Positions 1 through 60,482 of a DNA stretch of 64,000 nt are shown here, in pieces. Below the pieces are notes generated by a model. That model saw nothing but the letters and a program-made list of their open reading frames with translations. It was not told the DNA's origin and searched no databases. Origin of the DNA: Octopus vulgaris (taxonomy: Eukaryota); contig OX597830.1 of NCBI GenBank assembly GCA_951406725.2, forward strand, positions 47,988,001 through 48,052,000, in the 5' to 3' direction. Made by a program: the position numbers and the translations under genes. Every line of letters starts with the position of its first letter. Positions within the stretch are counted from its first letter, which is position 1.

Positions 1-242
1 AGATCATATTTTGTACATTTCCAGATTTTTTTAAATTTTATTAAGAACACGGTTTAATAATTATCGTGACATCGTAAGTCACACATAAGTCCCTTTTCGT
101 TTTAAAATGCCATACAATGTACAATATATAGTGATTCCAATAATTTTGAGCAACAATGCTATTCCCATACATTTAAAGGTTTATCATAATATTCTGTAAC
201 CCTTTTGAACGAGCGAATTTTTCAATTTTAGTATACGAATAA

Positions 243-842
243 GGCGGCGAGCCGGCAGATTCGTTAGCACGCCAGGCGAAATGCATAGCTGTATTTCGTC
301 TGCCGTAACGTTCTGAGTTCAAATTTCACCGAGGTCGACTTTGCCTTTCATCCTTTTGGGGTCGATTAAATAAGTACTAGTCATGCACTGGGGTCAATAT
401 AATCGACTTAATCCATTTGCCTGTCCTTGTTTGTCCTCTCTGTGTTTAGCCCTTTGTGGGTAGTAAAGAAATAGGTATTTCGTCTGCCGTTACGCTCTGA
501 GTTCAAATTCCGCTGAGGTCGACTTTGTCTTTCATCATTTCGGGGTCGATGAATCAAGTACCAGTTACGCACTGGGGTCGATATAATCGACTTAATCCGT
601 CCGTTTGTCTGTCCTTGTCTGTCCTTTCTGTGTTTAGCCCCTTGTGGGTAGAAAAGAAATAGGTATTTCGTCTGCCGTTGGGTTCTGAGTTCAAATTCCG
701 CCGAGGTCGACTTTACCTTTCATCCTTCCCTGGTCGATAAATTAAGTCCCAGTTGCGCACTGTGGCCGATATAATGAACTGTTCCCCCCCCAACACCACC
801 ACCACAAAATTTTGGGCCTTGTTCCTAGATTAGAAAAGGATT
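243..842 (+). mobile_element. tRNA-derived SINE (family 1) expanded into a head plus 3-unit tandem array (~186-188 bp period)
   Basis: Head GGCGGCGAGCCGGCAGATTCGTTAG (A-box-like) and B-box-like GAGTTCAAATT in each unit. Units restart at GTATTTCGTCTGCCG (~290, ~476, ~664). The first two units end in ...TGTGGGTAG(T/A)AAAGAAATA; the last has a different tail (...GGGCCTTGTTCCTAGATTAGAAAAGGATT). Confidence 0.85.
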
Positions 843-1887
843 CTTGTATATGAATGTGTGTATGCACGTATGTTTGTCTGTACCTAGAGTATGTATGCGT
901 GACTGAAAAAATGAAAGCATCTGCTTCACTTCCGGTCAGGGAAACCCCATAAGATATTTGATTCAAGTTATTAATCAGAAAGAGTTAAAAGAAACAATCA
1001 AATTCAATTTGTCGCCTGCTAAAAATAATTTTATATTGAAGTATATTTAAATAGGAACAGAGGAGAAGGGAGCTGAATACGACGACTTTAATATTTTTGA
1101 TAACATGACCACCAATTAAGAACCGATTTTGGATAAATATCTTGGTCTTCTATAATAATTCCATTCAAATTTCGGGCCCTCTAAATGAATGTTAAAGTGA
1201 ATTCGAGGAAGAATGAAATAGCAAATTTGATTTGAGTGGGATATGAACTTAAGATGGGAAGGATCGTAACTAAATACTGGATGCGATTTTGTCTCTCACA
1301 TTATTGATTCTGCCTATCCTTGAACTAAATCGAACATCTTAAACTGAAACATGATTGTAAGATGAAAAGGAAAAGCCCTGCCTATTTGCGTGTTAATAAT
1401 TCATCGGCCGATCAATTTCATATTTTTGCATTCGTTCTATAGTTTAATGATTTCTAACTTTGAGCCAAGGACACGTGTTTGTAGGGAAGGTGTCCAGAAC
1501 ATAAAAAAATTCAAGCAACCAACCCACAAGGACTCAAACCACAGGCTTGTTGACAAATAGTTCTGTCAAAATCCAAACAATGAGGTTTAAAAGGTAATAA
1601 GTGAATATAAACAGGTGCATACAGGCTACACTTTCAAATAAAAACTATGATCACAAAAAATGGCTTCAAAATGTGAATAAATAAATACGAGTTTGAAACG
1701 TGACAACGCGATCGATAATGTTGTTTTTCGACACTTGGCGTTATCTGTATTATTCTGTTGTTTTATATCTAAGGGTGTAACTTAGGAACCAATTCGACAT
1801 AATCTGATAGAGATAGAAAAAGGATATTTATATTGTTCAAAAGAAAAAGTCAGACATAATGAAATAGCTGATATTAATATGATATGT

Positions 1888-4929: not shown

Positions 4930-5289
4930 AAAAAAGGAATCCTCTTATAGCCATCACTGGAATGCCTTTCTTTGGATTTAAACTGGAGTTTTGATAACAC
5001 AGTGATAACATGTTCGTAAAGGTTTCCTAATTTGACTGGCTAGAAATAGCTGCCAATTTCTTTTAATTCACACCAAAGTATCTTTAAAGAGAATATTAAA
5101 AGAGGAATGAGCAAGACTCAGATACCGGAATGTCGCCGTTTAAAATTTGTCTTCATAGAGAATCTTGATAACCTTGTTATCATTGTGTTTTCATTGCTCC
5201 GGTTCACCTCGACCGTCTACTTTATATAAAACCAATGAAAGGAGTCGATTTTTAGAGTAACATCGACATTGAGTAATCCTTTCTCCTGG

Positions 5290-5490
5290 AGGCACAACGG
5301 CTTAGATTTGTGGGGTGTGGGCTAGTCGATTACATGGACCTCAGTATTCATCTGATACTTAATTTATCGACGCGGAAGGGATGAAAGGTAAAGTCGACAT
5401 CGGTGGAATTTGAACTCAGAACGTAGCGACGGGGTAAACACCGCTACGCTTTCCGTCCGGCGGGCTAACGATTTTGCCAGCTCACCGACT
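5290..5490 (-). mobile_element. SINE family 1 monomer
   Basis: Reverse complement of head and body: AAAGTCGACATCGGTGGAATTTGAACTCAGAACG...TGCCAGCTCACCG. Confidence 0.8.
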
Positions 5491-8560: not shown

Positions 8561-8579
8561 AATTAAATGAGAATGAATG

Positions 8580-10290
8580 ATTAACAAAAAATGAAGCGGA
8601 GGATGCGGTCGACACCCTCACCTTGAAGACTTTGTTTTTTCCTTTTTTTGTCCTCGCTTAAGCAGGATCTTTCACTCGCAACATACTTGCTACTGACTTC
8701 CATCTCTTACGCGACACACTTTGCAACAGGCATTTCTTTTCCAGCCTTATTTTCCTTTCCTTGTGGAAAAGGAAGCAGTTGACTAAGCCGAGGCTTGAGA
8801 CGAAAATGTCTGTCGCAATTCCTTTCACTCTCGTCTTCCATACTACCTCTTTCACAACAGCAACTACCGAGAGAAAACAAGCTCGCTCCTCCCTATTCAG
8901 ATAGGGCAGCGGAATTATCTTAATTACAGATTCGTTCGACAGTTGTACTCTTCTCGAATACGACAGTAGTTGTTCGACATAAGCCCAGAGCTCAGTCACC
9001 TTGAGGCATTGCACAATCGCGTGCAGGTCAGTTTCACTGTCCTGCTCGCATCTTGCACAAACCGGCGAAGGCGCACACCCGTGTTTAAAGAGCTTATTTC
9101 GAACCGGTAAAGCTCCTCTTTAACATTTCCAAGCCAGAGACTTTTAGTAATTATCCATAGGTCCCGGCCCGAAGGCTCTTCGGAATAGGTTGGCGAGTCG
9201 ATCTTCGTCGAAGCCTAGGATTCCCAGGAGGTCGTCACACTTGAACTCTACTAACCCTCAATAAGAAAGACGAGGTAGTACCCCTGCTTCCGGCGTTGTC
9301 CGATTGGGAGTGAAGCACGAGTGCCTGATGGCACTCTGCTTGCCACGCACCCAACCTCGTTCTACGCTTGATCCATGGGCCCAGTTCAGTAAAAGATGTG
9401 AACTATGGAAATACCAGCTTGACGAACGGAAGCTACACCTGCTCACCGTCCAGGAAAAACCAGGGGTGCCTAAGCTTCAGCGCATGTCTGCGCATTTTTA
9501 GCTACGGCATCCCGAGCCTACCCTTCAGCGGCTTTTGACAGCAGATTGAGTGCCTTACAAGAGATCTGCTGCCCCTTCACAAGAAGCGGAAGAGCATGTG
9601 TTCCATCTTGTTTAACCACGAATCGGGACATGGCACGACGGTCAGGTGGTAGGTGATTACAGAGGTAATAAACACCTCTGCAACCCTCGCCCTCCCTTTC
9701 AAGGACGGTCTCCGCTCAGACCAGGTCTGAATTAGGAGATCCACCTTGCTCGCACCTCGCTCCAATTTTTCTCCATCTGGAGATCTGGACCAAACCAGAC
9801 TCCAAGCTTTTTCACCGGCCCCTCTGTTCAACGTCCCACGACGCTGTCGGAAAGCATCGACTTGCCCCTTCAGGTGCCGATTTGCAAGCCGAACGATTTA
9901 TCCCGGTTAATTTTCGCCGCTGCCACCGCTTCGTAATCTCTTAAGGCCTCACCTATCCGCTGTAGATGCTCGATCCGGGATACGATGACAGTGGTGTCGT
10001 CCGCGTATGCCAAAGTTGACTTTCTACACCCTAGATCTTGCAGAGCCTCTAACTTCCTCAGCAATGGCTCGAGGGCCAAGACATAGAGAAGCGGAGAGAG
10101 AGAGCGCCATTGATGTATCGATCGTTCAATGCAGAGCGGCTCCGAAAAGAAACCGTTCACCCGAACTACCGATTCGATGTCGCTGTATAAAGCGGTGATC
10201 TATCCAAGGGAGGTCGGGCCGAAGCCAGCCACCGCGAGGACCGCCACCAGATATTAATGGTCTACCCTATTGAACGCTTTGGATTGGTCT
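8580..10290 (-). mobile_element. Tx1-clade LINE fragment (3' half of RT plus C-terminal zinc knuckle)
   Basis: LDQSKAFNRVD, LSPLLYVLALEPLLR, LAYADD, SLKGRARVAEVF, CARC...HAIVQC; homologous to the 18926-21508 ORFs. Confidence 0.9.
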
Positions 10291-10292
10291 AA

Positions 10293-11068
<776 letters not shown>

Positions 11069-15745: not shown

Positions 15746-15869
15746 TGATTTTGCTAGTCTCCGACTCCACCACTCGAACAGGATAGCCAATCTCACCCAG
15801 AAATGGGTAGAGAAGAAATTGTCCCCGAAAGCTTGGGTGGAGGTGGCGCATGCATACATAGCTTCCCTC

Positions 15870-17128
15870 ATCTATTATCACCTGACAGTAGTCCATTGCC
15901 CTGCTTTGAAACTGACCAAGCTAGAACGCTTAATATCCGGCCTTCTGTGGAAAGAACGTCTTCCCCTCGTCATACGGTTCATCTGCTATTAACAGCCACA
16001 GAGTGGAGGACCGGGCGTGCTGTGGCTAATGATGCACAGATGTGCGCTGAGGCTACAACATCTCCAGCATTTTCTTAACGGTGAACAGATGTGGTCACCG
16101 TGTGTCAAGTAGGATTTTCTGCTGCTCATCTCATTGACGGAGTTATAGTACTCAATCAAACGTAGACCCAGAAAGGACGCGTGGAACGTGGAGTGTCAGC
16201 AGCGCTCACAGCTTCCTGTCAGTCGGGCAGCGCGGTCAGAGGAAGTTCCACTGCTGAGTTCTATAGGGGATTAGTAGCGGGTAAGAATCACGTCGGCCTT
16301 GTGGAAACTGGGCGACGGAAGGGATCAACTAACTGATCTTTTCCGGAGGACTATCAGGCCGAATCGTATGGATAACTTCCAAAGTTCTATGGCCTGGCTG
16401 TGCTATCGGGGAGCTCTGCCGGCTCCAAACGATCTCTGCAGATACAAAAGTGCTGTCAATCTGGTTTGTTCGAGGTGTGCGCAGAACGACAAAACCGTCC
16501 TGCACGCACTCATTCATTGTCTGGGCATTACTGACTAGTGCAGCTTTGTCAAACGGCTGTTATCGCGTGTAGGACAGATCCGGTTATCATCTGAGTCCAT
16601 CGTGAAGATCGCCCCGATGACGCCTTCCTTTGGCCAGGAAGAAAAGACAGTTTTCCTCTGTCTGGTGGCTATGGTGAAGGCGGTGGACGAAACTGAGAGG
16701 ACTGAAGGCAAATGCTTTCCTCTTGGGCCAAACCCTCATCGACATTTTCAAGTTCCACTTAAAAAGGTAAGTGAGGGTAGAGAGGGAAGTTCTGCTCCCC
16801 AGTAAATTTGATGAAAGGTGGGTGTATGTGGTGAGGATGGTCCGAGTAAAGGGGCCTGCTCTGAACTTTCTTTTGTAAACCGGAGGGGTTGAGAAGGAGA
16901 AAGGCGCCTTCTGAGTAGCACTGGCGGTCGGAATAACCAGGTAGTGTGGGGGGTCTGCGGTTGTCTTTGTGAGGAGCTAACCCCTTTTGGGGAATTTTTA
17001 TTGTTCAATTTCTTTTTGTTATTTATTTTCTGTTACTTATTGCATACACGGCATTGTGCAACACCCCACTTGTCCCTTTGTGTTGTATTGTCCCTATTTT
17101 TATAAGAAAGGTCCGATATAAAAAAGTA
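15870..17128 (+). mobile_element. Tx1-clade LINE 3' fragment ending at (ATT)n
   Basis: YHLTVVHCP, MDNFQSSMAWLCYRGALP, CSRC...TVLHALIHC; followed by (ATT)n 17128-17192. Confidence 0.85.
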
Positions 17129-17277: not shown

Positions 17278-17460
17278 GGTCATGCTTCAAGAACCCTGCG
17301 AAAAATTCTTGTAGTTCCAAGCAATGGTGAAATTTGTAGGCGTTCTACCTTCACACTTGCACCGATCTTTTTCAGCCATGTTGGTAGTTGAGTACTGATA
17401 CTTCGAACTGCATCAATTACCCTGGGTATCACGTCTACCCTCCTCATTAACCACAACATT
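17278..17460 (-). mobile_element. R4/Dong-like LINE C-terminal fragment
   Basis: LWLMRRVDVIP...LQISPLLGTTRIFRRVLEA, the typical C-terminus of these elements. Confidence 0.75.
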
Positions 17461-17480
17461 ATTATTATTATTATTGTTGC

Positions 17481-17555
<75 letters not shown>

Positions 17556-17598
17556 CATTATTATTATTCTTATATTATTATTATTATTATTATTATTA

Positions 17599-17638
<40 letters not shown>

Positions 17639-17847
17639 CTTTATCCTTATCATTATTATTGCTATTGTTATTGTTGTTGTTGTTGTCGTTGACGATGAGG
17701 TAAGACCTGTTTTGAACGCTCCGTTAGTTTGAATGTTTCTTGTGTATTTTTGAAGGTTGTTGACTGTTACGTAAGTGTTTTTGTTTTCTAAACCCCTATT
17801 GGTGTATAGAAGGAATTCTTTTCCATTAAGAGTTCTGACGGTCAGTA

Positions 17848-18587
17848 CCTATTTCTTTACCACCCACAAGGGGCTAAACACAGAGAGGAGAAACAAGGAC
17901 AGACAAACAGATTCAGTCGATCATATCAACCCCAGTGCGTAACTGGCACTCAATTTATCGACCCTGAAAGGATGAAAGGCAAAGTCGACCTCGGCAGAAT
18001 TTGAACTCAGAACGTAACCGCAGAAGAAATACTTATTTCTTTACTACCCACAAGGGGCTAAACATAGAGGGGACAAACAAGGACAGACATAGGTATTAAG
18101 TCGATTACATCGACCTCATTGCGTAACTTGTACTTAATTTATCGATCCCGAAAGAATGAAAGGCAAAGTTTACCTCGGCTGAATTTGAACCCACAACGTA
18201 ACGGCGGACGAAATACCTATTTCTTTATTACCCACAAGGGGCTAAACATAGAGGGGACAAATAAGGACAGACATAGATATTAAGTCGATTACATCGACCT
18301 CATTGCGTAACTGGTAGTCAATTTATCGACCCCGAAAAGATGAAAGGCAAAGTTTACCTCGGCGGAATTTGAACCCACAACGTAACGGCGGACGAAATAC
18401 CTATTTCTTTATTACCCGCAAGGGGCTAAACATAGAGGGGACAAACAAGGACAGACATAGGTATTAAGTCGATTACATCGACCTCAGTGCGTAACTGGTA
18501 CTCAATTTATCGACCCCGAAAGGATGAAAGGCAAAGTCGACCTCGGCGCGATTTGAACTTAGAACGAAATACGACAGACGAAATACG
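17848..18587 (-). repeat. Four-unit tandem array (184-bp period) of the SINE family 1 body with Tx1-like tail
   Basis: Units start at 17848, 18032, 18216 and 18400 (C(C/T)TATTTCTTTA...); same unit as 290-663 on the opposite strand. Confidence 0.92.
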
Positions 18588-21500
18588 AATTTCTTTATTG
18601 CCCACCGGGGGCCAAACATAGATATGGACAGTACAACTGATGGGATCAGTGAATCGATATGATTTTACATAAATGTAACTTTAAAAATAAAATACAATAC
18701 ATAAAAAATCGAATGGAATACACAGTACAAAAACAATACAAATGAAGCGATGATTAGGTTACGCTCCGATCCCTCAAGCCCCGATCTACCGCTGATACCT
18801 TTTTCCCCCCTTTTTTCCGTCTATTCACACGGTTCCTTGCACGCACAACACTCGTGCAACATGCTTCCATCTCTTTTGGAACGTACACTCCGACAGACAC
18901 CTCTTCTCCAGCCACAGTTTCCTTTTCAAATGAAAAGAAAAAAAGATCGTAAATTGTGACCAGAGATAAAGTCGCCTGTCTTAATTCCTTTTATCCTAGT
19001 CTTCCATACTGCCTCATTTGCTATTGCTACAACCGTGAGAAAACAATTCTTACCTTCGTTCGTTAGAACTCCCGGTGGGTCAATTTTTATAATTGAGTCA
19101 GTCGACAGCTGTACTCTTCCTTCGCCGGACAACAGGTGTTCAGCATAAGCCCACATTTTAGTTATCTCCGGACACTGAACAATAGCGTGAGGGACGGTTT
19201 CCCTGTCCCTCCCGCATCTTGGACAGGTCGGCGACTGACGTTTACCATGTCTTGCGAGCTTATCCCAAATGGGCAAGGCACCTCTGTAGCATTGCCAGGT
19301 TAAGGACTTTTGGAAGTTGTCCAACGTTCTCAACCCGAATGTACGATGAAACAGGCTGTCCAGTTGAATAAATCCGAGACCCAGAGTCGACCCCAGGCCA
19401 TCGTCGCATTCAGACTCTACCAACCCACTATATAAAATCCGTGTGGAACCCCTACCGCTGGCGTTGCCCGAGCGCCGGAACAGCAAGAAGGCCTTACGGC
19501 ACTCTTTATGCCACTCACTCAACCTCGGTCTACGAGAACACCAGGCTTCCTGTTCGCTAAAACTCTTGAACTCAGGAAACATTTGTCTGGCTAGCGGAGA
19601 CCACACCCGTTCACTATCCAGGAGAATCCAGAGATGCCTCAACCTCAACGCATGTCTGCGCATCATTAACCAAGGCATACCTAAACCTCCCTTTAAATGC
19701 TTTTGACAGCAGACAGAGCGTTTCACAAGTGGCGACCTGCCCTTCCACAAAAAGCGAAAGAGCTGTCTCTCCAGCCTGATCAACCACGAATCCGGACAGG
19801 GCACGACGGTCAGGCGCTAGGTAATGACCGATGCGATAAACACATTGGCCACCTCCGCCCTCCCTTTCAGGGATAGCCACCGCCAAGACCAGGTCTTGAC
19901 TACTGTAGCCACCCTGCTCAATACCTCCGTCCAGTTCTTCTTTATCTGGAGGCCTGGTCCAAACCAGACTCCCAGCAACTTAACCGGTCCCTCTGTCCAG
20001 CGCCCAACAACGCTGTCTGAAGGCGTCGACTTGCCAACCCAGGTGCCGAGCTGCAAGCCAACCAACTTTTCCCGGTTAATCTTTGCTCCTGCTACCTCCT
20101 CGTAAGCCTCAATAGTCTTACCTACTTCACGTAGGCGTGCTACTGTGGTTACACTGATAGTGATATCATCCGCGAAAGCCGTAACAAACTCCTCTAGTCC
20201 TGGTTCTCTCGGGAGGCCACTCAACCTTCGCAGTAATGGCTCGAGAGCCATCACATACAAAAGTGGTGAAAGAGGACATCCTTGACGAACCGAGCGTTTG
20301 ATGCAGAACGGCTTCGAAAGGAAAGCGTTCACCCGAACTATCGAGTCAATGAGGAAGCCAAGACCCAGGCCAAACCGCGCAAGTACAGTCGCTAGGTATC
20401 GATGGTCAACCCTATCAAAAGCTTTAGACTGGTCCAAAGGCACTAATGCCACACCTTTGCCAGATATATTACCAACCCTCTCTATGGTATAGCGAATAAG
20501 ATGGAGGGTATCCTGAATGGTTCTGCCTAGGATGGCACATGTCTGTACCTCCCGACTATACCATTCGCGACACGCGCCAACCTTTTTGCTAGAACCTTGG
20601 CCAAAATCTTCACTTCTGCGTTTAACAGAGTGATGGGCATGGAATTCTCTAGAACTTCTCCCTTGTCCGGGTCCTTTCTGACCAACGTCACTACTACCCG
20701 GCGCACAGATCTGGGGATAAACCCATTTTGTTTCCAGTTTAACGTACACGTCAGTCAGTAGTTGCCCGAACAAGTCTGGCATACATTTATATAGCTCGTA
20801 CGGAAGACCATCAAGTTCCGGCGACTTACCCGCTTTACAATCGACCAAAGCCTCCATCACCTCCTCAGGCGTGATTGGCCCTTCGCAAGACTCCGCATCC
20901 GACACCGAGAGGCACGGCAGCCCGGCAAGAAAGTCCTCGAGGGCTCTCCCGCCACCAGGACCGCCGTCACTCCCGAACAACTGGGCGAAGTGCTCCCGAA
21001 AGACATCACACATTTTCTCGGGTTCGTTTACCAAGACACCATTTTCATTCGTCAAAGACCGAATAGAGGAACTATTTTCTTGCCGAGCTTCCACCACTCG
21101 GGCCCCTCCAGCGGCCTTGATTCCTTCACTTCCCATTGCACGTAACTTAGCTCTGGCAATACTTCCCATGTGGTGGGCTTCAGGATGCTGGTTTAACTCC
21201 AGTCTTTTCACCCTCGCTTGGTCTGCATTATCAGTCCTCCAGGCTTCTTCTAGTTCCTTAACTAGACCATCTCCTATTTTTCGTGCCTTCTTAGCTAAAC
21301 TTATGCTAAACCTAATAGACTCATATTTGATGGCTCTTTTTAGGGCGTACAACCATTTGTAATTAATGATGGTACCTGTTGATGCCCTCTGTATTAACAT
21401 CTTGATCCGCTTTCTGTACTCCTCAATCGCCAAAAGGGACGTATTGAGTTTCCAGTAGCCAGATCTCTGTCTATGCAACTTAACTACCGTCAGTTTACAG

Positions 21501-23870
21501 GTAACCATCTTGTGGTCACTGTAGCTGACTAGAAAAAACTGTGGACACTCAACTATGGACTTAAAATCCTATCTAGATATGTTCTAGTAGACCCGTCACT
21601 ATTTGACCACGTCCACTGTGGAGTGTTCGGGTGCTCCAACCTATATGGATCTGCTAACTGAAATTGACTTCGCAGATCACGAAAGCCTGGGTTACATTTT
21701 CTGTTCATGTTCGAGCTCGAGCCAACACAATCTGTGTGTGCTGCACATATTGTATTAGAGTCTCCTAACAGTGAATACTAGTGAATGCGACATAGCTAGG
21801 AACTTTCCCAGGGCACGAAAATATTCAGTTTGCGGGCCAATAATGTTTGGTGCGTAAATAGCGACCAGCCTGATTGTCTTGCCACAACTAAATGTCAAGT
21901 CGAGAACGACCAACCTGCCTTCTGGGTCAGAAAAAACCAAATTTTTCTCGGCTACCCGGTTTCTTTTTAGTAGGACCAACACCCCACCCCCAACTCCCAC
22001 CCAACTCGGAGAAACGTATTTCTCGTAGCCGTTCAGGAGGGGGAGCAGATCTCTTGGCCCCTTCACCCGGGTTTCTGTTGCAACAATTACATCCAAATTT
22101 CTCGACCTGATGTCATTTAGAAAGCGTCCTTGCTTCCAGCTTGACATCAGGCAACGAACATTTATACAACCAATGTGAATAGACATGATTTACCTGTTTA
22201 ATCAGGATTGTCTACCTTTTTTTGATCCCGGGTCGGAGGTGGACGGTCTTGGGAAATAGATTTGTCAAAATCCCGTCTCACCACCGACACAGAATTATCA
22301 GGTGGAGGGAGAGTCTCCACCTTTTCCTTTTCTCATGGGATCGGGGCTGGTAATCCATGAAATATCGACTTGTTAAAATCTAATCTCAATGAAGATACTG
22401 TCTTTCTGTATTTGTTTTGTAAAATTCTATGAGTTTTATTTGAGACTTCATATATGTCGTAATTGATAAATTCCCCTGAAAGGTTATCTATTTTTTTTAC
22501 AGTCTTTATCAGTTGAATGTCTCTCATGAGCTCAGTATCTTTAGTGTATGTGGCTATTATGCCTTTTTCTTCTTTTTCTCTTCTGGCAGTCTTTTTTGTC
22601 GTTGTTCTGTAGTAGTCGCCGCTCTCAGTTGAGTTGCTGGTTGTATTTTCCTTTTGTTTGTTGTTTTTTCTCATCTGTTTCTTCTTTTTCATCTTCCTCT
22701 TTGTCTTTTTTCTCTCCTTCCTCCTCTTCCTCATTTTCCTTGCAGTTCCTTCGAATGTGGCCTAATTGACTACATAAAAAACATCGAGGTTTTCGGCTCT
22801 CAACAAACACCACGAGGTTCTCCTCCCCTACCTCAATTGTCTCGGGAATTCCTTGAATTATTTTAGGGTCCGCTTGAATGAGGAGATTAATTGTTTGACC
22901 ATCCCAGTGTGTGTTTTCGGTAGCGGTAGCCTGGAGGAGAGTAATTTTTTCTTCCTCTTTGATCAGGACTGCCGCCAACAACCACATAGGGTCCACTTCC
23001 GGTGGGACCATTGTAATTTTAATTCTGGACGTTCTCATCCCCATATATAGGAGATAAGCTCCACGTCGTTGGTTTTCAGCGTTTCTACTGTGTTCTTTTG
23101 TGCTATTTCTTTATTGGTGAACCTTACTTCCACCTTTCCGAATTTCTTGCCTCTTCTCAGATAAACTATGTCGCCCCATATTGGCTTTAAGTACTTTTCT
23201 ATTTTCTCTTCTGACATTCTTTCATTTTTTTCTTTTTTGTAACCAATATGTTTTGAAAATTAAAGTTTTTTGGTTTTTTTCTTGTAATAACTTTTCCGGA
23301 GGTTCAATTTTCACAACGTTGTCAGTTATTTTCATCATTTGGCTATATTTCATAAAGTCGCTCTTATTCATCGACAGCAGCCAGGTTCCACCCCCAGCTG
23401 CCAATGCAAAACATTTTTTCCATTTTTTGGTTCTGTCTGGATGCTAGGCACATCAATTACTCTTTTCGGCACAGTGCCTTTGTTCTCTGGCAAAGTCGGA
23501 AACTCTTCTGGTGATAGTTCTGACGAGCTTTCAGACACATCTCCAAAAAAAATCAAATATATTATCTATTCTGCTATTCTTTCTTGTAGCGAGGGAAACC
23601 CTTATTTCCCTGTCTGTAGTTGGCTCCTCGCCGGACATGTATTTCCTCCTCTCAACAGGAGAAACAAGTATTTCTGCTCCAACGGCAGGCTCTATGCTAG
23701 ACGACATTCTTCCCCCCAAAGGGGGAATGAACAACGCGTGCTACTACAAGCACTAAGTGTTTTCAAATAAAAACTCCAACAGTTAAGTTATTCAACAGTT
23801 TAAAAAGAAACAACAGTTATTAACAATATTAACACCAAGAAACAGCAATTTTTACCACGAACACATGTGT
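18588..23870 (-). mobile_element. Near full-length Tx1-clade LINE (Tx1-A, ~5.3 kb) with 15-bp TSD, inserted in a SINE
   Basis: ORF1 pieces 22333-23734 with CFLCSQLGHIRRNC knuckle; ORF2 with APE endonuclease (GCINVRCL, VATETR), RT (LDQSKAFDRVDH, SVRQGCPLSPLLY, AFADD) and CPRC...ETVPHAIVQC; AATAAA tail; TSD GACAGACGAAATACG 18573-18587 vs GACAGACTAAATACG 23871-23885. Confidence 0.93.
18926..22186 (-). pseudogene. Tx1-A ORF2 (endonuclease-reverse transcriptase), disrupted
   Basis: ORFs 21755-22186, 19817-21508 and 18926-19804, separated by stops and frameshifts. Confidence 0.9.
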
Positions 23871-23932
23871 GACAGACTAAATACGGTGACGCATTTCGCC
23901 CGGCGTGCTAACGTTTCTGCCAGCTCGCTGCC
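23871..23932 (-). mobile_element. Detached head of the SINE whose body is at 17848-18587
   Basis: Reverse complement GGCAGCGAGCTGGCAGAAACGTTAGCACGCCGGGCGAAATGCGTCACCGTATTTAGTCTGTC matches 243-304. Confidence 0.9.
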
Positions 23933-26900
23933 ATTCTGATGCCCAGTACCTCAACGATTTATCATCTGAACAGCACAAATAACAGTACCAACACCACTAA
24001 CTGCACCGGCACCACCATTAACACTGAAAAAGAAAAAAGTCAAGAAAACACCGCCAACGCCACCACCGCTGTGAACAAGAAAAACAACGAAGAAAATACA
24101 AACACAAACGCAAATGACAGATCCAATAGACACGGTTTCGCTTCTGCAGCGAAACAAACAAGAGAAACGATAAACGTCACATTAGAGGATTTAAAAAATT
24201 TCAAGGGGCTCTTAGTGAGACAAGGTAATAATGTCTCTCTAAATACCCCGAAAGAAATTGTTCTGGACACAAACAGAAGAAGCATTACGTACAAATGCAT
24301 AAACAAACAAAAAAGTCATTGGAACGAGCAACACAAGAATAACTGGAACTAATTCTGAAACCAATTTGGAAGAAGAAAACATAAGTGACACGTGGAAAAT
24401 GGTTCGGTACTGTGGAAGTGCGCTACGCAAAGGAAGAAGCAAGAAAACATTCCACAGTGCCACTATTTTCAGAAGACCTTATCGTCGTGCCGACATGTCT
24501 TGGTCGGCACGTTACCAAAATTAATATTGGCCGGGGGGGGGGGGGGAGTACCCCTGAATTAAACATATGTTGGCTGATGGCCGCTGTCTTCTATGATATA
24601 GAGGATACGGCCGCGATCCTGGAGGTGTATAAGTTGCACCGACAAAATTGGACGGGTCAGGAGTTGGAACGCTTTGTCCAAATTGAACAAGAGGACCTAA
24701 AGTTTATCCCTGACTCCTTAAACTTACCGAAGAGCACGAGACTACGCGTAGCTGTGGAGGGCAGGAGGCCGAGGTGCTACTTTCGTGGAAACAATCAGCA
24801 CCTCAACGTCGACTGCCAAAATACAAGGAGATGCGTCGAACGCTACAACCGACACCAGAAACAGGGACATCTCCAGTACAGCAGCAACAACAGCAGCAGC
24901 AGCAGCAACCGAGGTACCCCCACCACCGGCCGGGGTACCACTACCCCCAGTCGCAGTAACACCACCACCAACAACTACTGTAGCAGTAGCAGCAGTAACA
25001 AATGAATACCAACAAAACCAAAAGTCGGAGTCAATCCTCCTTCCCGACCAAAACAACTCGGACTGTTCGAGTAATGAAGTCGAGAGGAGGGGGGGGGGGG
25101 CAAACAGTTTCCCCACTCCCTCCAAAGAAAAAAAGAAAAATCTACTGAGACAGCAGAAGAAAAAGTGGGGGAGGCGCAAGGACACTGAACGTCCCAACAG
25201 CGGCAACACCCACACTCAACAGCCGATAACAACAACACCACCTCCACCAGCACTATCACCTCAAACACAAACTCCACCACAGATTCTACTAGCACCACAA
25301 ACCTCACAGCTATTGATACAGGCAATAATAGATTTAATTACGTACTCAAGAGACAATACAAACACCACCATGACAGAACTCACCACCACTACCACCACCA
25401 CGCATACAAATATTAAAAACCACACAACAAATTTACAACACCATAAAAGCAACATTTCCAGATGCTGTGGGGTGGCTCCAAAATACTTTTACAAAAAGAA
25501 TATATGAAAACCTAGGGAAACATCCACATGAAGTGTACCATCATACCAGGAGACAGTGGTAAGAGGTGCTCTTCTCCATTCTACAGTTATTTAAACTGAG
25601 TGATGCTCAGAATAGTTTTATAGAGGCCAGGGGCCTCGGGTCACCTTGGAAACAACGTCACCTTTTAAATGAGCTGAGGTCATTTACTGTAAATGTTGCA
25701 GTCATTAGTGAATCCAGATTATCCGTCCCACGGAGATTTTTCTTTCTCCGTGTCGGCCTGGGTGGTGTAATAGTAAAACTGTGGGGCTTTTCTGGAAGGG
25801 TCCGGATTTGAATATAAGGGCAGTCTTCCTGGATTCAGAAGGTAAGTTGGTGGTCCTAGATGTCAACAGCAGTGACGGCTGGGCTTTCAAACTGGTGGCT
25901 GACAGGGGCAGGGTGGTCTGATTACTTCAAGCGTCTGGAACACGTCTCGAACATTCGTACTAGTAGGGGATTAGAACGCTGTCTTAGATGGATGTTTCGA
26001 TTGCGTGGGAGTTTCTTTTAAGAGATGTGGGTTGCAAAAACCTCAAAAATCTACTCAGACGTTTTCCATTGTCTGCCGGGTACCGACTAGATTATCCGAA
26101 TGTCCCAATGTGGACTTGAACAAACCGCATCTGGTTATCTAGATCGTATCTAGATAGAGTATTGTGTAAGCCAGCGGACAGGGATATCATCGGGTGTTCA
26201 TAATTTCACATGGTCAACTACACAGACCACAAATTTGTGATCTGTACAGTCGACTTGGATAGGCTTCATAGACACGGTCCCGGTTACTGGAAGCCGAACA
26301 CGGCGTGAGGTTGACCCTCGACCAATTTTTCGACGCGAAACACGAAAGCTGCGGAAAGGGAATGATAGCGTAACGATAGGCCCGGAAGTGAAAAGTGACA
26401 ATAAAGCCACCATTCGGTCTTTGGTGGACCAGGAAGGATACATGGTGTTCGAACCGAAAGAGACGGGCCCATTAAATTGCATTGCTCGGAATCTAGTTTG
26501 GTCCAGACCAAAACTGGGACGAGGTGACGAGGAAGGTAGCCAACCTAACCCAGACATGGGCCTGTAGGGAGCTGCTTCAGAGCGGTCGAGGGGAGGAGGC
26601 GAATGTGTACATCGCATCTGTCATCGATTACCACTTGACCGTCGTCCCTTGCCCCATTTGCTGGTTGACCAAACTGGTGCGTTTACTCTTCCCTTTTCTG
26701 TGGAAGGGGCGCGTTCCACTGGTCAGGCGCTCCATCAACTGTCAACAGTCGCTGAATGAAGGGCTGGGCATGCCGTGGTTACTAATTCGCAGACATTCAT
26801 TAAGTTTGCGGCATCTCTAGCGTTTCCTTGGCGGTGAGCAGGTGTGGTCACTGTTTGTCAGCTACATTTTTCCACAGACCGTCCCTTTGACTGAGCTGCA

Positions 26901-27900
26901 AACCTGGATTAAGCGTAGACCGAAGAGGGAGTGCTTGTCACAGCCCTCCGCCAGGCGAACAATGAGGTCGGTGTAGTTTCACTCTAGCGTTCTATAGAGG
27001 GCTAGTGGAAGGATATCGCGACGACGTTCTCAGGGAAACTCTAGGCATCGATGAAGATCAACGAAATGGTCTGTTTCGGAGAACTTTCTGGCCTAGGCCT
27101 ATGAATAAGTTCGAGAAGTCCCTTGCCTGACAGTGCCACCGAGGGGCGCTGACTGTTTGAGATAAACTTTACAGGTACGGAAGTGCCGTCAGCCAGGCCT
27201 GCTCGAGGTGTGCCCAGAATGATGAAACCGTTCTACACGCCCTTGTTCAGTGACCGAATATTGCTGACCTCTGTGGGTTTATGTCGAACACCTGCTGTCA
27301 CGTGTTGGACGGATCCGCTATCAGCTGAATCCATAGTGAGGATTACCCCACCGCCCTCCTTTGGCTGGAGGAGCAGGCAATTTTTATTTGTTTCGTGGCT
27401 GTAGCGAAATCGGTAGTATGGTGGACTCGTCTGAAAGGGCTAAAGTCAGAGACTTTCCTCTTTGGCCAAGCCCTTACCAACTTTTTCAAGTTTCATTTGA
27501 AATGGAATTTGGGGGTGGAGAGGGAAGTGTTGCCTTGTAGTAATTGTGTTGAAAGGAGGATGAATGTTGGAAGAATGTCCAGTGCAAAAGACCAATTCTG
27601 AGCGTGCACCTGTAAACAATAAAAGGGATTTAAAGAAGGCCTCTTGCCCTGTTGATCAGGCACCCGTGGCCTTTGTGGGGTTTTCCACGAGGATCTTAAA
27701 GCGCCTCCCCTATTAGGTGTTTTTTTAGTTGTTTGATTTACTTGCTATATATATTGTTTACACGCCGTAAAACCCATTGTATCTTCCCGTTTTTGTCTGT
27801 TATGTTGTTGCATGTCATTCAATGTTATTTTATGTGAGTGATCATGGCTAATAAAATAATTTATTACTATTATTATTATCATTATTATTATTGTTATTGC

Positions 27901-27987
<87 letters not shown>

Positions 27988-27989
27988 CA

Positions 27990-28032
<43 letters not shown>

Positions 28033-31971: not shown

Positions 31972-33835
31972 CACCATTATTATTATTGTTATCATTATTA
32001 TTGATTTTGGTATTTTAGAAGGATTGACGAACCTCATCACAAAGGTAAATAGACAATACGAAAAGCATTTCGTCTGGCGTGCTAACGATTCGGCCAGTCC
32101 GCCGCTTTAGCATTGCAGACAACATATTAAAATTAATTCCGATCTATTCTACACGCTTCCCTGAGCTGTTCCAGAAAAAATCATTTTTTCCAACTCCAAT
32201 GCGGACTAATTATATTTGTAAGACATATACCCCGGACTCCTTAACAAGAATCGAAACCTCGGTCTTCACGCTTGTTTATATTGTTCTCGCCATTTGTGTT
32301 TAGAATCCATTCGTTTTACCTATTTAATTTGCCACCATTTTAGATGAGACAGAGTGTAATCTTGTTAATCCATTCCGATCTATTGTCAATGGTCTGACTT
32401 GACTTTAGCACTGCAATAAATTCGAGATACCAAGAGAAAAAATGTTCTCTTTCCTTTGCAACTCCCAAACAGTTAACTATGGCACCTTCTCGCGAGCTTT
32501 GCCCCATTTACCCACCTCAAGTTAGGGTTCACTATTAACAACTGCCATGGTAATAGATTATCCATAAAAACTAACTAAATTTTGTGTTTACTTCCCATTC
32601 GTCGCACTTGCAGAACCGCGTAAGTAAAATCTACAGTAAGTGTGAAATACCTTTCAGCAGTTCTTTGCAGTGCATCCAGAAATATTATCTACGCATTGCA
32701 CAGTCTTTCGCCAACTTGTCACATCTCTACGTGTTACAAACAACTTGCTACATCGTGCCTGTTACGCCTTTCCCGTTACAATTATACCGTTATACATATA
32801 AAGACATGTTTGAAGTACATTTCGAAAGTAGCTAGGATCTTTATAAACGTCTGTCCCTTCATATCTGAGGCCTTGTGTTATTACTAGAAATAACTGATAG
32901 TAAATAAAACTCAACATATATTAAAGAAGTAATGACTTCTTATATAAAATTATCTTATATATAAATAGGTAAGTCGATTGTATTAAGGAGATTAGGATTT
33001 CTTTATTAATATTAAAGAAACCACGAAAGATATTAAGGCCATCAGAAGAATAAGAAACTATTTTTATTCCATTTCAGAACTTTGGAACGATTTCAAACAG
33101 TCAAATACACTGGACAAGATTAACTCTGTGGGATGTGGTATAATATTTATCGACTCTTATTATTTCGTTGACAGTAAGACCCTCTTTTTGTATTTTTTGT
33201 GTTTTTCGTTTCTGTTTCTGGTTTCTCATCTTTAATTCATTGATCTCTAGTTCTTGCCACAAAAAATTAAAAAATAAATAAATATCTCTTTCTTCTACAT
33301 CAAATGAGTATTTCTACTTAGAAACTTAATTCTTAATTAAATATATTAACAGTAAATTAATTATTAATATCCATTCAAAAGAATGTTGTAAAACAACCCA
33401 CAAATACATTTAAAATCTGGCAAATGGATTAATATTAATCTCCGTTGTCATTAAAATTCTCAACACGCTTCCTTACTAATCTGCAAAGAAATACCTCAAT
33501 ACATCTCGCCGGTAATACGAGAACCACTCTCCCTCCGAGACACCCAACAACATACCCCTTCTCATTCTCCCGTCATACATGCTATTTCACCAGCCAGATC
33601 CCACATCAATTATTATCCCCAGTCCTTCCTTTCTAGATTATACAAGACTCTGGAACTCACTCCCTACTCACACTAACCTAAAGATGTCCAAACGGAACAT
33701 GAATAAAATCGATCTATCGAATCAATAGGCCACATCTATTCGTTTCACTTGTACTTTGTCAGACTAGAGCAATAATTTAATTTATGCTCTTATATTTATT
33801 GTGTTTCCTCTTTCCAATTTTTCTTTCTATTGCAG

Positions 33836-34026
33836 AAAAAGAAATTAATGGCCAGACATCTTATTCAACATTTTCCTTCAAACAAAATCCAAATCTCTAC
33901 CTTATAACCGAGGCACAAATGGATGCTCACTCGGTTCTGGATTGTTCCCGTTTATGTATGATATCTTCTACATGTACTGCCTTTTCATATACTAACACTA
34001 AGTGCCTACTAAAGAAACTGATCTGA
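33836..34026 (+). CDS. PAN gene A terminal exon 5a, PAN/Apple domain 3
   Basis: TTGCAG| acceptor, phase 1; SVLDCSRLCMISSTCTAFSYTNTKCLL, TGA at 34024. Exons 1-5a total 753 nt (250 aa). Confidence 0.85.
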
Positions 34027-34601
34027 ACTTTAATTGAATTCACCCCAAAAGTACTTACTTCTCCATGAAATGTGAGCAAGACTTCAACGGATCAGGTTTG
34101 CTAACTTACTTTTGCTTACTTTTTGTGTGCTTTTTTCTTTTTATTGTATCTCATCTTTAATTTATTGATCTTCTGTCTCCAGTTCTTGTCGAAAAAATAA
34201 GAGAAATTAATGTCGCTTTCTTCTTCATCGCATTATTTTTTGTAATTAGAGTCCTAATTCTTAGTTAAATATATTAGCAGTAAATTTATAATTCCTCTCC
34301 TCGAGATACCCAGCCACATGCCCCTTCTCCTTCTCCCGTCATACATGCTATTACACCAGCCAGATCACATCCCGCATCAATTATTAATCCCAGTCCTTCC
34401 TTTCTAGATTATGCAAAACTCAGAAACTTACTCCCTACTCTCACTACCCTAAAGATGTCCAAACGGAACATTAATAAAATCGATCTATCGAATCAATAGT
34501 CCATATCCATTCGTTTCCCTTGTACCTTCCAATGAAGTGAAATAGCTTCATTTATGTTGTTATATTTCTTGTGTTTTCTCTTGCTTTTTTCACTATTGCA
34601 G

Positions 34602-34789
34602 AAAAAGAAATTAATGATTTGACAACTTATTCAACTTTTTCCTTCAAACAAAATCCACATCACAACCTTATTACCGAGGCCCAAATGCATGCTCACTCGG
34701 TTCTGGATTGTTCCCGTTTATGTTTGATATCTTCTACATGTACCGCCTTTTATACTAACACTAAGTGCCTACTAAAGAAACTGATCTGA
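34602..34789 (+). CDS. PAN gene A alternative terminal exon 5b (tandem duplicate)
   Basis: Intact TTGCAG| acceptor, open frame with one in-frame codon deletion, AATAAA at 34901. Confidence 0.7.
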
Positions 34790-35399
34790 ACTTTAATGGA
34801 ATTCACCCAAAAATTACTTCTCCATGAAATGTGAGCAAGTCTTCAACGGATCACGTTTGCTAATAATAATTATATAAGATAAAATGTGTGTTTCTTTGTG
34901 AATAAAATCAATTTAATTCAGTTATTTCTTTTGTTGATTAATTTTAATTGCTAACGTTTTTCGTTCTAAATTAGTCTTATCTTAGAACATGATTGCTAAT
35001 TTGAGTTTTAGCTCTGGTCTCTCGGAAACTATTTTAAGCTGGCTGATCTAAACTGCTTTTATTAAGGATTTTAAAGCGAAATTAAAATAAGAATCTTTTC
35101 TTTTTCTCTTTGGACGAAATTTTGTGTTTCAGCAACTTATTTGCAACTTATTAGTACAGGTTAAACGAAGAATAGGTTAAACCAAAACACGAAATCAATT
35201 ATACGGAAAACGAAATCTAATAGAAATTTGATCGTAAACTCAGAAGCCCCACGATTTCTTTCAGGTTATCGAAAAGTTAAAATAGTTTTTTGCTGTGAAA
35301 AACATAAATTGCAATGCTGACCATACATGTCGTAAAACGTTCCTTTTGTTTTCATTTGTTTAGTTTTAGATTAATATTGGATTCTTTATAGTTTCTTGA

Positions 35400-36845
35400 A
35401 GAGGAGAGGTGGCGGTGGATATTGTGTTTGCAAGTCTTTATGGATTGGTGAGATCGATACGGTTAATGCTTAGTTTGAAGATTTGTGTGTCGACATCTGT
35501 TGGGAAAATTGGATCAGGGATTGCATTTCAGGCGATTAATGTTCTGGAGCAGTGGAGACCCAATCGCTGTGTTGTAGCCCAGTCAGCATTAGATTTAAAA
35601 AAGCACGGGCAAAAATTTTAAATAAATAATAATTTGACTTTTGATTTAATAAATGAAATTTCAAGTCAACTTTTCAACGTGATTGAAAATCACAAATAAA
35701 TAAAACGTTGGCACCGTCTAATATAAGTCATGAAAATACGAACTCCTCGAAAGTGATTCTCTTTTCGTCGTTGTGTCGCAAAACGAAGGAAGATGTCTTT
35801 AAAATTTAGGTTTTCATAACACCATTTATTCATTATACTTCGGCATAAATTGTCCGGTTTATTGTCTACCACGGATCTCGCCTGATAAGAATTTATCCTC
35901 TACAGATTGAGAAAGTATTCATTCATAGACTGCCGTGTGCTTACAGGCAGTGTTACATCTTCTTGTAGCAGTTCGATCAGTCCAATCGAGGAATCTGTTG
36001 AAAGTAAATCGGTCAAATAGATCAAGATGTGTCACTTCCACCCGATGAGTCGCTTTGCAGACCACACCAGGGCGTCTAAATTTAGTTGAAATGTATCTGC
36101 TATGAATTTGAGACAAACAATGTTCAGAAACTGGAGCATTTACGGATTGAGATAAGAGGGGTTTATCATGATATCACCATTTTATGCCGAAAATTGGTGT
36201 CGGAACTCTAAGCAACTCTGGTTCAATATAGGGATGACGGTCTCACGATGAAAATTTATGAAAGTGCTCTATTAATTTTCAGCCGACTTTCAACATTCTC
36301 ACTGACCGATGAGACCCTTCTGCTGTGGAGATTTTCCTCGTAGATTAGGCATTTACTGAGTCAGTGGGTTGATCTTAATAACTTCACTGATGTGTTACTC
36401 AATCGGGGGCTACAAAACTTTCTTTTCGTTTGATATGAAGATGTTTAACTGGATAGCATTGCCGTTGCTGTAGTCACAGCAGTGAAGATTTGTAATATTT
36501 TTGCTAAAGACTTGATTCGTATTAAAACTTGTTTAGAAGAGACGAAAGCGTAAACTTTCATAGACAATCGTAATAGAAGCACGTGTCTTTAATTTGCCTC
36601 TCCCATGACTTGATAACCTCACTGAAATGAGGGAGGATATCCATAATAAAGGAAAGCTCATAATGAACAACATGGCACGGTCCCTGCTGATAGACCGATC
36701 GTGTATAGGTGAAGATTTTCTTCTCTGCTGGTTGTCCTCGTTTTTTTTCCTGTAAGCACTTGTTGTACTGAGGCAGTCTGAATCGATCCATAAACAGTTA
36801 AAGTTGCTTTTGTATGACGAAAAATTCACCGATAGCCTTTACTTT
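35400..36845 (-). mobile_element. Decayed hAT-like (ZMYM1-type) transposase remnant
   Basis: KDTCFYYDCL (TTF-finger-like); linked copies at 57370-57924 and 62840-64000 carry SYDGATVMSGGIAGVQAKL...H..NL, a hAT catalytic-region motif. Confidence 0.6.
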
Positions 36846-36849
36846 TCCT

Positions 36850-48674: not shown

Positions 48675-48692
48675 AATAATAATAATAATAAT

Positions 48693-53100: not shown

Positions 53101-53176
53101 CTCTCACCACAACACATTGGGGTCACGACTATCTCCCTCCCCCACAATTTCTGGCTTTGTGCCTATAGTAGAAAGG

Positions 53177-53239
<63 letters not shown>

Positions 53240-53406: not shown

Positions 53407-53603
53407 AGCGGTGAGGTAGAAAAATCTTTAGCACGCCGGACAAAATGCTTAGATGTATTTCGTCCGTCATTATATTCAAATTTTTTATTAATTTATAATT
53501 TCTCATTAATGTAAAATAATAAAACTATTCACCTGAAAATAATCCCGTCAACCATTACGAGAACCAAACCAAAACAAAGCATTTATCTATTTTATTCTCT
53601 CAG

Positions 53604-55211: not shown

Positions 55212-56170
55212 GTCTCTCTCTCTCTCTCTCCATAACTGACAGTAAATAAAACACATATATTAAAGAGGTAATGATTTCTTATATAAAATCGTCTTATATA
55301 TAAATAGGGAAGTCGATTGTATTAAAGAGATTAGGATTTCTTGATTAATATTAAAGAAATCACGAAACATATTAAGACCATCAGAAGAATAAGAAACTAT
55401 TTTTATTCCATTTCAGAACTTTGGAACGATTTCAAACAGTCAAATACACTGGACAAGATTAACTCTGTGGGATGTGGTATAAGACTTTTCGACTCTTATT
55501 ATTTCGTTGACAGTAAGACCCTCTTTTCGTTTATTTTTTGTGTTTTTCGTTTCTGTTTCTGGTTTCTCATCTTTAATTCATTGATCTCTAGTTCTTGCCA
55601 CAAAAAATTAAAAAATAAATAAATATCTCTTTCTTCTACATCACATGAGTATTTCTACTTAGAAACTTAATTCTTAATTAAATATATTAACAGTAAATTA
55701 ATGATTAATATTCATTCAAAAGGATGTTGTAAAACATCTCACAAATACATTTAAAATCTGGTAGATGGATTAATATTAATCTCCGTTGTCATTAAAATTC
55801 TCAACACGCTTCCTTACTAATCTGCAAAGAAATACCTCAATACATCTCGCCGGTAATACGAGAATCACTCTCCCTCCGAGATATCCATCTACATACCCCT
55901 TCTCATTCTCCCGTCATACATGCTATTTCACCAGCCAGATCCCACATCAATTATTATCCCCAATCCTTCCTTTCTAGATTATACAAGACTCTGGAACTCA
56001 CTCCCTACTCACACTACCCTAAAGATGTCCAAACGGAACATGAATAAAATCGATCTATCGAATCAATAGGCCACTTCTATTCGTTTCACTTGTACTTTGT
56101 CAGACTAGAGCAATAATTTAATTTATGCTCTTATATTTATTGTGTTTCCTCTTGCTATTTTTTTCTGCAG

Positions 56171-56361
56171 AAAAAGAAACTAATGATTTGACAGCTTATT
56201 CAACATTTTCCTTCAAACAAAATCCATATCACAACCTTATAACCGAGACCCAAATGGATGCTCACTCGGTTCTGGATTGTTCCCGTTTATGTATGATATC
56301 TTCTACATGTACTGCCTTTTCATATACTAACACTAAGTGTCTACTAAAGAAACTGAGCTGA
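56171..56361 (+). CDS. PAN gene B terminal exon 5, PAN/Apple domain 3
   Basis: CTGCAG| acceptor, TGA at 56359, AATAAA at 56483. Exons total 747 nt (248 aa). Confidence 0.87.
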
Positions 56362-57924: not shown

Positions 57925-57926
57925 TA

Positions 57927-60259: not shown

Positions 60260-60482
60260 AAGGTGACGAGCTGGCAGAGTCGGTAGTGTGATGGACAAAA
60301 TACTTCGCGGTATTTCGTTCGTCTCTACGCTCTGAGTTCAAATTCCACCAAGGTCGACTTCGGCATTTATCATTTTTGGGAGTCGATAAATTAAGTCCCA
60401 GTTGAACACGGGAGTTCATGTAATCGATTTACCTCCTCCTCCTCCGAAATTGCTGGGCTTGTGCCACAATTTGAAACCAATA
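60260..60482 (+). mobile_element. SINE family 1 monomer with uninterrupted target motif
   Basis: GAGCTGGCAGAGTCGG...GCGGTATTTCGTTCGTC...GAGTTCAAATTCC, ordinary tail GGGCTTGTGCC. Confidence 0.8.

What the first reader, a model, noticed from the sequence alone, without database searches (positions are those of the whole stretch)
243..842. Self-targeting SINE arrays: units carry both the Tx1 target motif and a Tx1-like 3' tail
Seen: the array-unit tail TGTCCCCTCTATGTTTAGCCCCTTGTGGGTAATAAAGAAAT matches the Tx1-A 3' end TGTCCATATCTATGTTTGGCCCCCGGTGGGCAATAAAGAAAT at roughly 80% over ~42 nt. The monomer at 60260, the tail at 53130-53178 and the last unit of this array have a different tail. Each array has one head followed by units restarting at GTATTTCGTC. 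Established: SINEs often share 3' tails with the LINE that mobilises them. Inference: a tail-swapped SINE is mobilised by Tx1-A and repeatedly inserts into its own kind, building ~185-bp satellites by retrotransposition.
Basis: partly seen in the sequence, partly recalled or inferred. Interest (0 to 1): 0.8.

Follow-up and report, generated by a model that had tools for sequence, protein, structure and literature searches.

The report
SINE carrying its own mobiliser's target
A very common short jumping element, likely from an octopus, ends in the same tail as a longer jumping gene that sits at one exact spot inside the short element's own head, so the short element likely gets copied back into its own kind and stacks into small head-to-tail arrays.

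Summary
Six of the 7 array units end in a tail 79-83% like the last 42-48 nt of a 5.3-kb L1/Tx1-type LINE (three aligned; 0 of 300 shuffles as good for all six). That LINE sits at the unit boundary, inside the SINE head between its A- and B-boxes, with a 14/15-bp target-site duplication (TSD). Corrections: array B ends in the Tx1-type tail at a non-SINE site with its own TSD, so targeting is not absolute; its head is split from the units by the LINE; a second Tx1-like end matches the tail as well; the arrays have 3-4 units and are not satellites. Array B mixes two subfamilies (its last unit resembles array A), which argues against pure local duplication, though B2 and B3 look duplicated. Best reading (0.5): a Tx1-tailed SINE inserts into its own head, and cDNA annealing to the target removes the second head. 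Multimer retroposition (0.25) and DNA-level duplication (0.2) remain. Target specificity rests on one LINE insertion, since no genome was held. Closest known: crocodilian SINEU-3/Tx1-Mar and clam SINE multimers. New variant of a known kind.

The parts
243..290 (+). Array A head: 5' part of a tRNA-like Pol III promoter; A-box-like 253-263; 5' arm (275-284) of an inverted repeat that pairs with the target
   Evidence: (243-330 folds with z -2.96)
291..474 (+). Unit A1: target, B-box-like motif (1 mismatch), body, Tx1-type tail (about 410-473)
475..662 (+). Unit A2: same layout, B-box at 501
663..839 (+). Unit A3: target, B-box at 689, body, other (non-Tx1-A) tail from about 779
225..240 (+). Left copy of putative outer TSD of array A (13/16 to 840-855)
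   Evidence: 10 of 3000 random flank pairs score as high
840..855 (+). Right copy of putative outer TSD of array A
23934..23951 (-). Upstream copy of outer TSD of array B (15/18 to 17850-17833)
   Evidence: 1 of 3000 random pairs
23886..23932 (-). Array B head
23871..23885 (-). Upstream copy of the LINE's TSD, which is the SINE target (14/15 to 18587-18573)
18588..23870 (-). Tx1-A: decayed two-ORF LINE. ORF1 remnant with CCHC knuckle; ORF2 pieces with APE-type endonuclease, RT and zf-RVT; 3' UTR ending in the shared hairpin and AATAAAGAAAT
18573..18587 (-). Downstream copy of the LINE's TSD, overlapping the start of unit B1
18401..18586 (-). Unit B1 (Tx1-type tail; B1-B3 subfamily)
18217..18400 (-). 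Unit B2
18033..18216 (-). Unit B3 (94% to B2, 6 shared changes)
17851..18032 (-). Unit B4 (Tx1-type tail, array-A-like subfamily, followed by the outer TSD, not the target)
17833..17850 (-). Downstream copy of outer TSD of array B; AGGTA follows the tail in the same register as at unit junctions
10710..10882 (+). Putative 5'-truncated 3' end of a second Tx1-type family between (ATCT)n and (TATC)n; same tail motif, no ORF evidence
5277..5487 (-). Diverged monomer of the SINE with the other tail
60262..60480 (+). Diverged monomer of the SINE with a variant of the other tail
53116..53176 (+). 3' fragment with the other tail, running into (ATT)n
53407..53470 (+). Head-and-target fragment without body
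32065..32105 (-). Head-only fragment

Best explanation
A tRNA-like SINE here has two tail types branching at one point, one matching the 3' end of an L1/Tx1-type LINE that sits inserted between the SINE's A- and B-boxes, and the Tx1-tailed form is likely copied by such a LINE back into the same spot in other copies, which would build the headless tandem units. Shown: tail homology, the LINE insertion and its TSD at the unit boundary, a Tx1-tailed founder with its own TSD in the same register, and mixed subfamilies in array B. Inferred: (1) Pol III transcribes from the single head; (2) a Tx1-type ORF2 binds the tail hairpin and nicks just before GGTA in a SINE head; (3) because the RNA itself contains the target, the cDNA anneals to the upstream target and no second head is added, as shown for R2 templates that carry upstream target sequence; (4) new units go in next to the head and push the founder to the 3' end (B4, A3). 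Some later growth is likely DNA-level duplication (B2/B3), and some loci may be copied as ready-made multimers.
For: Tail match 79-83% in the three tails aligned; 0 of 300 shuffles as good for 6 of 6 Tx1-type tails and no match for 4 of 4 other tails. LINE TSD 13/14 in the script and 14/15 read directly, 1 of 3000 random pairs. All 7 Tx1-type ends in the two arrays are followed, after one base, by GGTA or a one-base variant (GGTA 5, AGTA 1, CGTA 1). Array B's outer TSD is 15/18, 1 of 3000. B4 has an array-A state at all 6 columns where B1-B3 differ from it, and is 88.6% to A2 but 84.2% to its neighbour B3. At column 185 the B1-B3 state is also that of both monomers and of a loose-end consensus in 4 of 4 runs, so B1-B3 are not simple descendants of B4. 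Units and LINE share a predicted 4-bp hairpin. Annealing precedent: PMC11331408 passages. Sequential-insertion precedent: PMC4494074.
Against: Only one LINE insertion at the target was seen, and other copies' junctions could not be read because its tables were cut. Of 6 Tx1-tailed units, 1 is not followed by the target. B2 and B3 share 6 changes and are 94% identical (bootstrap 94). A3's body groups with A1, A2 and B4 (bootstrap 77) and not with the monomers, which fits array A arriving as one multimer as well as serial insertion. The tail matches the microsatellite-flanked fragment at 10710-10882 as well as Tx1-A. Tail folding energies are not better than shuffles (z -0.85 to +0.19 for the five Tx1-A and unit tails folded). 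Tx1-A is decayed, and each array has one T4 run or more in a unit. No RNA was examined.
Confidence: 0.5

Rival explanations
1. Multimer masters. One or a few early chimeric events made a head-unit-unit source locus; Pol III reads through the units and whole multimers are retroposed, by Tx1 when the RNA is primed at a Tx1-type tail (array B) or by another LINE at the other tail (array A). Self-targeting matters only at the origin.
For: Each array lies inside one outer TSD. A1, A2, A3 and B4 form one group (bootstrap 77) and A1/A2 share no derived changes. The majority unit sequence has no T4 run.
Against: A mixed array such as B needs a mixed master, which itself needs insertion or conversion at the exact boundary. 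The LINE sits at that boundary.
Confidence: 0.25
2. DNA-level expansion. After one dimer forms at a locus, unequal crossing-over or slippage between homologous bodies adds units, as proposed for squamate SINE-derived satellites and blood-clam SINE multimers; conversion from dispersed copies explains the mosaic.
For: B2 and B3 are 94% identical with 6 shared changes; B1-B3 are 89.7-94% alike against 83-87% to array A. One head plus headless repeats is the layout described in the blood clam (PMC11481361) and in squamates (PMC10702118).
Against: B4 is not of the B1-B3 subfamily. A1 and A2 share no derived change. The same unit boundary and foreign tail recur at two loci, and the boundary is a LINE insertion site.
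Confidence: 0.2
3. Template-jump concatemers. The reverse transcriptase restarts on the same or another SINE RNA during one insertion.
For: Each array has a single outer TSD. An unchecked note from this scan reports such arrays for a carnivore SINE.
Against: Jumps would copy whole RNAs with heads or stop at varied points. Here inner units start at the target at 5 of 5 unit-to-unit junctions and none has a head.
Confidence: 0.05

Closest known systems
SINEU-3 and Tx1-Mar of crocodilians (Kojima 2015, PMC4494074; parts 1-4 of 5 read)
   Same: SINE proposed to be mobilised by target-preferring Tx1 elements; inserts into another abundant repeat; tandem copies attributed to sequential insertion.
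   Different: The target is a Mariner transposon, not the SINE itself; heads are U1/U2-derived; tandems are whole copies around a TSD; the link was made from shared targets (no LINE matching the SINEU-1 3' end was found).
Target-specific Tx1 families: Tx1 into Tx1D, Keno into U2 genes, Kibi and Koshi into microsatellites (as listed in PMC4494074)
   Same: APE-type two-ORF LINE in a multicopy target with a TSD; other Tx1-like ends in this window abut (ATT)n or (TATC)n.
   Different: None of the passages read gives a SINE head as the target; specificity here is n = 1.
Blood-clam TSD1-(SINE)n-TSD1 multimers (PMC11481361; passages)
   Same: One full head, headless inner units, last unit with a complete tail, one outer TSD: the layout of array A.
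   Different: Clam inner units have truncated tails and are discussed as recombination products. Here inner units have a complete, different LINE-type tail, and the boundary is a LINE insertion site.
SINE-derived satellites of squamates (PMC10702118; abstract, passages, Discussion)
   Same: Tandem units made of part of a SINE, including the B-box; 150-190 bp periods occur.
   Different: Up to 1000 homogenised units, attributed to duplication; here 3-4 units, mixed subfamilies and a swapped tail.
R2 'anneal' 5' junctions (PMC11331408; passages)
   Same: A template carrying upstream target sequence gives a seamless junction with no duplication of the shared part; as little as 11 bp suffices.
   Different: Different clade and endonuclease; an engineered system; not shown for Tx1.
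Octopus tRNA-derived SINEs OK, OR1, OR2 (Ohshima and Okada 1994; seen only as a reference listing; OR1 and OR2 named, OK recalled)
   Same: Probably the same organism group; this abundant SINE may be one of them.
   Different: No sequence was available, so identity is untested, and the original paper may already describe the tandem form.

Membership tests
tRNA-derived SINE | Internal type-2 Pol III promoter (A- and B-box) | tested here: met
   A-box pattern in 3 heads, degenerate by eye in both array heads; B-box pattern in 5 of 7 array units and both monomers
tRNA-derived SINE | Assignable tRNA ancestor | tested here: inconclusive
   ARAGORN found 0 genes in the window; Rfam gave no match near a gathering score in 150-900
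tRNA-derived SINE | Interspersed, high copy, TSD-flanked | tested here: met
   7 places in 64 kb; TSDs at both arrays but not at the two monomers; about 1000-fold deeper than the LINE body in 4 of 4 runs, which is not a copy number
tRNA-derived SINE | 3' tail shared with a LINE | tested here: met
   for the Tx1-type tail; no partner found for the other tail
tRNA-derived SINE | Pol III transcription | not testable with these tools
   only contigs were offered
Tx1 clade (for Tx1-A) | ORF1 with CCHC knuckle; ORF2 with APE endonuclease, RT and C-terminal zinc motif | tested here: met
   RVT_1 2e-20, zf-RVT 1e-8; zf-CCHC 5e-4 and Exo_endo_phos 3e-3 lie below the Pfam cut-offs; full-length relatives have these domains
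Tx1 clade (for Tx1-A) | RT phylogeny inside Tx1 rather than L1 | tested here: inconclusive
Tx1 clade (for Tx1-A) | Target preference (over 20% of flanks in one repeat, the criterion of PMC4494074) | tested here: inconclusive
   1 of 1 insertion at the SINE target; other copies' junctions not readable
SINEU | U1/U2 snRNA-derived head | tested here: not met
   no Rfam snRNA match; A- and B-boxes present
SINE-derived satellites (squamate type) | Long homogenised arrays (at least four middle units in that paper) | tested here: not met
   3 and 4 units in all, 83-94% identity
Clam TSD1-(SINE)n-TSD1 multimers | Single head, headless repeats, one outer TSD | tested here: met
Clam TSD1-(SINE)n-TSD1 multimers | Inner units with truncated tail, only the last complete | tested here: not met
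   inner tails are complete and of another type; array B ends in the same tail as its inner units

The most novel reading that the evidence does not exclude
A closed self-homing loop: an octopus Tx1 family uses the genome's dominant SINE as its landing site and splits its Pol III promoter, while a SINE lineage took over that LINE's tail and now homes into its own head, so that a sizeable share of octopus SINE mass is headless units made by site-specific retrotransposition.
Probability: 0.35. Interest if true: 0.7.

Novelty: new variant of a known kind. Interest (0 to 1): 0.5.

Why it matters
SINEs make up 11.6% of the Octopus vulgaris assembly and are mostly unclassified in the table of recent insertions (PMC13282606). 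If one family grows by inserting into itself, it would give an RNA route from interspersed repeat to tandem array, which the reptile and clam papers read here attribute to DNA duplication or recombination. It would also explain how many insertions could pile up without hitting new sequence, and add SINE heads to the list of Tx1 targets. The claim can be tested at once on existing octopus assemblies.

Tried and rejected
No genome was held, so the genome-wide test was not run. Pattern scans for more loci: metagenomes gave 1 hit, a chance match with no SINE around it; prokaryote genomes gave 0 twice; viral contigs gave 0; plasmids and phages gave 0. Sequencing runs: no RNA holder listed on record, only guessed ones; four runs of organisms A-D were laid on 18370-23990. 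The SINE swamped the joint and loose-end tables (1371 joints and 5970 loose ends not shown), so LINE junctions could not be counted. Two ambiguous hints were not used. First, depth at 18569-18570 (27-35 thousand in X1) is near that of the LINE 3' UTR (20-33 thousand). The octopus transcriptome supplement of PMC9115989 gave no readable sequence; 3 of its 8 held files and 2 oversized ones were not searched and may bear on multimer transcripts. One search placed the hairpin one column off and is void; one search is the corrected count. The tail of the R4/Dong-like LINE at about 48680 (label recalled) and three other Tx1-like ends were rejected as donors of either tail; the best case was 11 of 300 shuffles. 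TSD windows were chosen by eye before scoring, so the null fractions are optimistic.

Full report
Setting. The window is microsatellite-rich animal DNA. The only homologue of the LINE's C-terminal region with an animal name is an Octopus sinensis protein (58% identity; another is labelled as a bacterial MAG protein, probably host contamination), and I recall the SINE as an octopus repeat, so the genus is inferred. No genome was held. The stretch is covered in runs of four coded organisms.

Observation. TRF finds two arrays of about 185 bp. Array A is head 243-290, then A1 (291), A2 (475) and A3 (663-839). Array B, on the minus strand, is head 23932-23886, a 5.3-kb LINE (Tx1-A, 23870-18588), then B1-B4 (18586-17851). 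Six of the 7 units end in a tail that aligns to the last 42-48 nt of Tx1-A at 79-83% in the three I aligned (33/42, 38/48, 35/42). All six beat 300 of 300 shuffles; the four other tails do not match. The two tail types branch at one point after the body, and the other tail appears as a loose end at that point in 4 of 4 runs.

The target. The unit boundary lies inside the tRNA-like region: the A-box is in the head and each unit carries a B-box. The target motif is the 3' arm of an inverted repeat whose 5' arm is in the head; 243-330 folds with z -2.96. Tx1-A has RT and zf-RVT matches above the Pfam cut-offs and weaker endonuclease and knuckle matches. It is flanked by a 14/15-bp TSD that is the target itself. 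Its clade is L1-like by the best solved relative; the name Tx1 was not confirmed by a tree.

Insertion scars. Array A has a 13/16 outer TSD and array B a 15/18 outer TSD, reached by 10 and 1 of 3000 random flank pairs; the two monomers have none (0.06 and 0.45). Array B's TSD begins right after the Tx1-type tail, with GGTA in the same register as at the unit junctions and the LINE junction. So a Tx1-tailed SINE was inserted as a retroposon, and on that occasion outside a SINE. It landed antisense at the apparent ORF1 start of another Tx1-like element, whose ORF1 and endonuclease match Tx1-A by tblastx (2e-27) and which lies between two (ATT)n tracts.

Relationships of the units. B4 has an array-A state at all 6 columns where B1-B3 differ from it; it is 88.6% identical to A2 and 84.2% to its neighbour B3. 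Array B therefore has at least two sources. Against serial insertion, B2 and B3 share 6 changes and are 94% identical, and A3's body groups with A1, A2 and B4 (bootstrap 77), which suits a one-step multimer for array A equally well. Seven units at two loci cannot settle this.

Tail structure. Units and Tx1-A share a predicted 4-bp stem with a 5-nt loop. The other tails have a stem at the same place with changed pairs: 89.6% of 48 cells pair, 3 of 4 pairs change on both sides, and 0 of 500 shuffles reach the pairing score. I picked this stem from these same related sequences and folding energies are not better than shuffles, so it is a hint only. It leaves open whether the tails were swapped between two LINE partners or diverged from one.

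Mechanism. Plain serial insertion would repeat the head, and no inner head is seen at 5 of 5 unit-to-unit junctions. The simplest fix (inferred) is that the SINE RNA contains the target, so the cDNA anneals to the upstream target and the shared part is not duplicated, as shown for R2 templates (PMC11331408, passages). This predicts founders at the 3' end holding the outer TSD (B4, A3) and newcomers next to the head (B1-B3, then Tx1-A), which is the order seen. I give this 0.5, multimer masters 0.25, DNA-level duplication 0.2 and template jumping 0.05. The models can act together.

Comparison with what is known. It works like crocodilian SINEU-3 with Tx1-Mar (PMC4494074, parts 1-4 of 5) but is not a SINEU, and there the target is another transposon. 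Array A's layout is like the clam multimers (PMC11481361, passages) and short squamate SINE satellites (PMC10702118, abstract, passages and Discussion), which lack a swapped LINE tail. Ten literature searches listed no paper on a Tx1 that targets an octopus SINE or on a self-targeting SINE. Passages of PMC13282606, PMC9115989, PMC8967140, PMC4758252, PMC4824008, PMC3747384 and PMC4640811 did not describe it either. The library lacks most subscription papers, Repbase, Dfam and the 1994 octopus SINE paper, so prior description is not excluded. Unchecked notes from this scan report LINEs stacking at targets in other repeats in other genomes; these are leads, not support.

Verdict. A real and tidy anatomy that joins known parts in a way I did not find in print: the SINE holds both the landing site and the tail of the same kind of LINE. 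The key claim of self-homing rests on one LINE insertion and two arrays. New variant of a known kind; interest 0.5.

Noticed in passing
window 17458-28032: Four-level nest: (ATT)n contains a plus-strand Tx1-like element (5' UTR about 17680-17850, ORF1 from about 23939, ORF2 remnants to about 27570, end about 27861), which contains SINE array B, which contains Tx1-A.
   Followed up: partly
window 15839-17128, 26180-27861, 10710-10882: Three Tx1-like 3' ends run into (TAT)n, (ATT)n and (TATC)n, which suggests several microsatellite-preferring families of the Kibi/Koshi kind.
   Followed up: partly
window 8566-10179 (minus): Another 5'-truncated Tx1-like ORF2 remnant, 68% identical to Tx1-A; its 3' end runs into an unrelated repeat rather than the SINE target.
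   Followed up: partly
window 275-300: The SINE's anticodon-arm region is a long inverted repeat, and the Tx1 cut falls at the 3' edge of its loop. The tail-target junction also makes a 6-bp inverted repeat. DNA structure might guide the nick.
   Followed up: partly
window about 13200, 28200, 44100, 53600: Four PAN-domain exon-like ORFs, two pairs of them with similar flanks: a tandem gene cluster is the host locus.
   Followed up: no
window 46490-48680 and 48690-50560: Two LINE remnants that look like R4/Dong (label recalled); the first lies between (AAT)n tracts and is followed directly by the second.
   Followed up: no
window 32890-37460, 55232-58597, 62322-64000: Several kb of 87-95% identical duplicated sequence in both orientations, not identified.
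   Followed up: no
P0002 and P0079: A 51%-identical relative of the LINE protein is filed as a bacterial (Herbaspirillum MAG) protein on a 1.8-kb contig, probably animal contamination.
   Followed up: no
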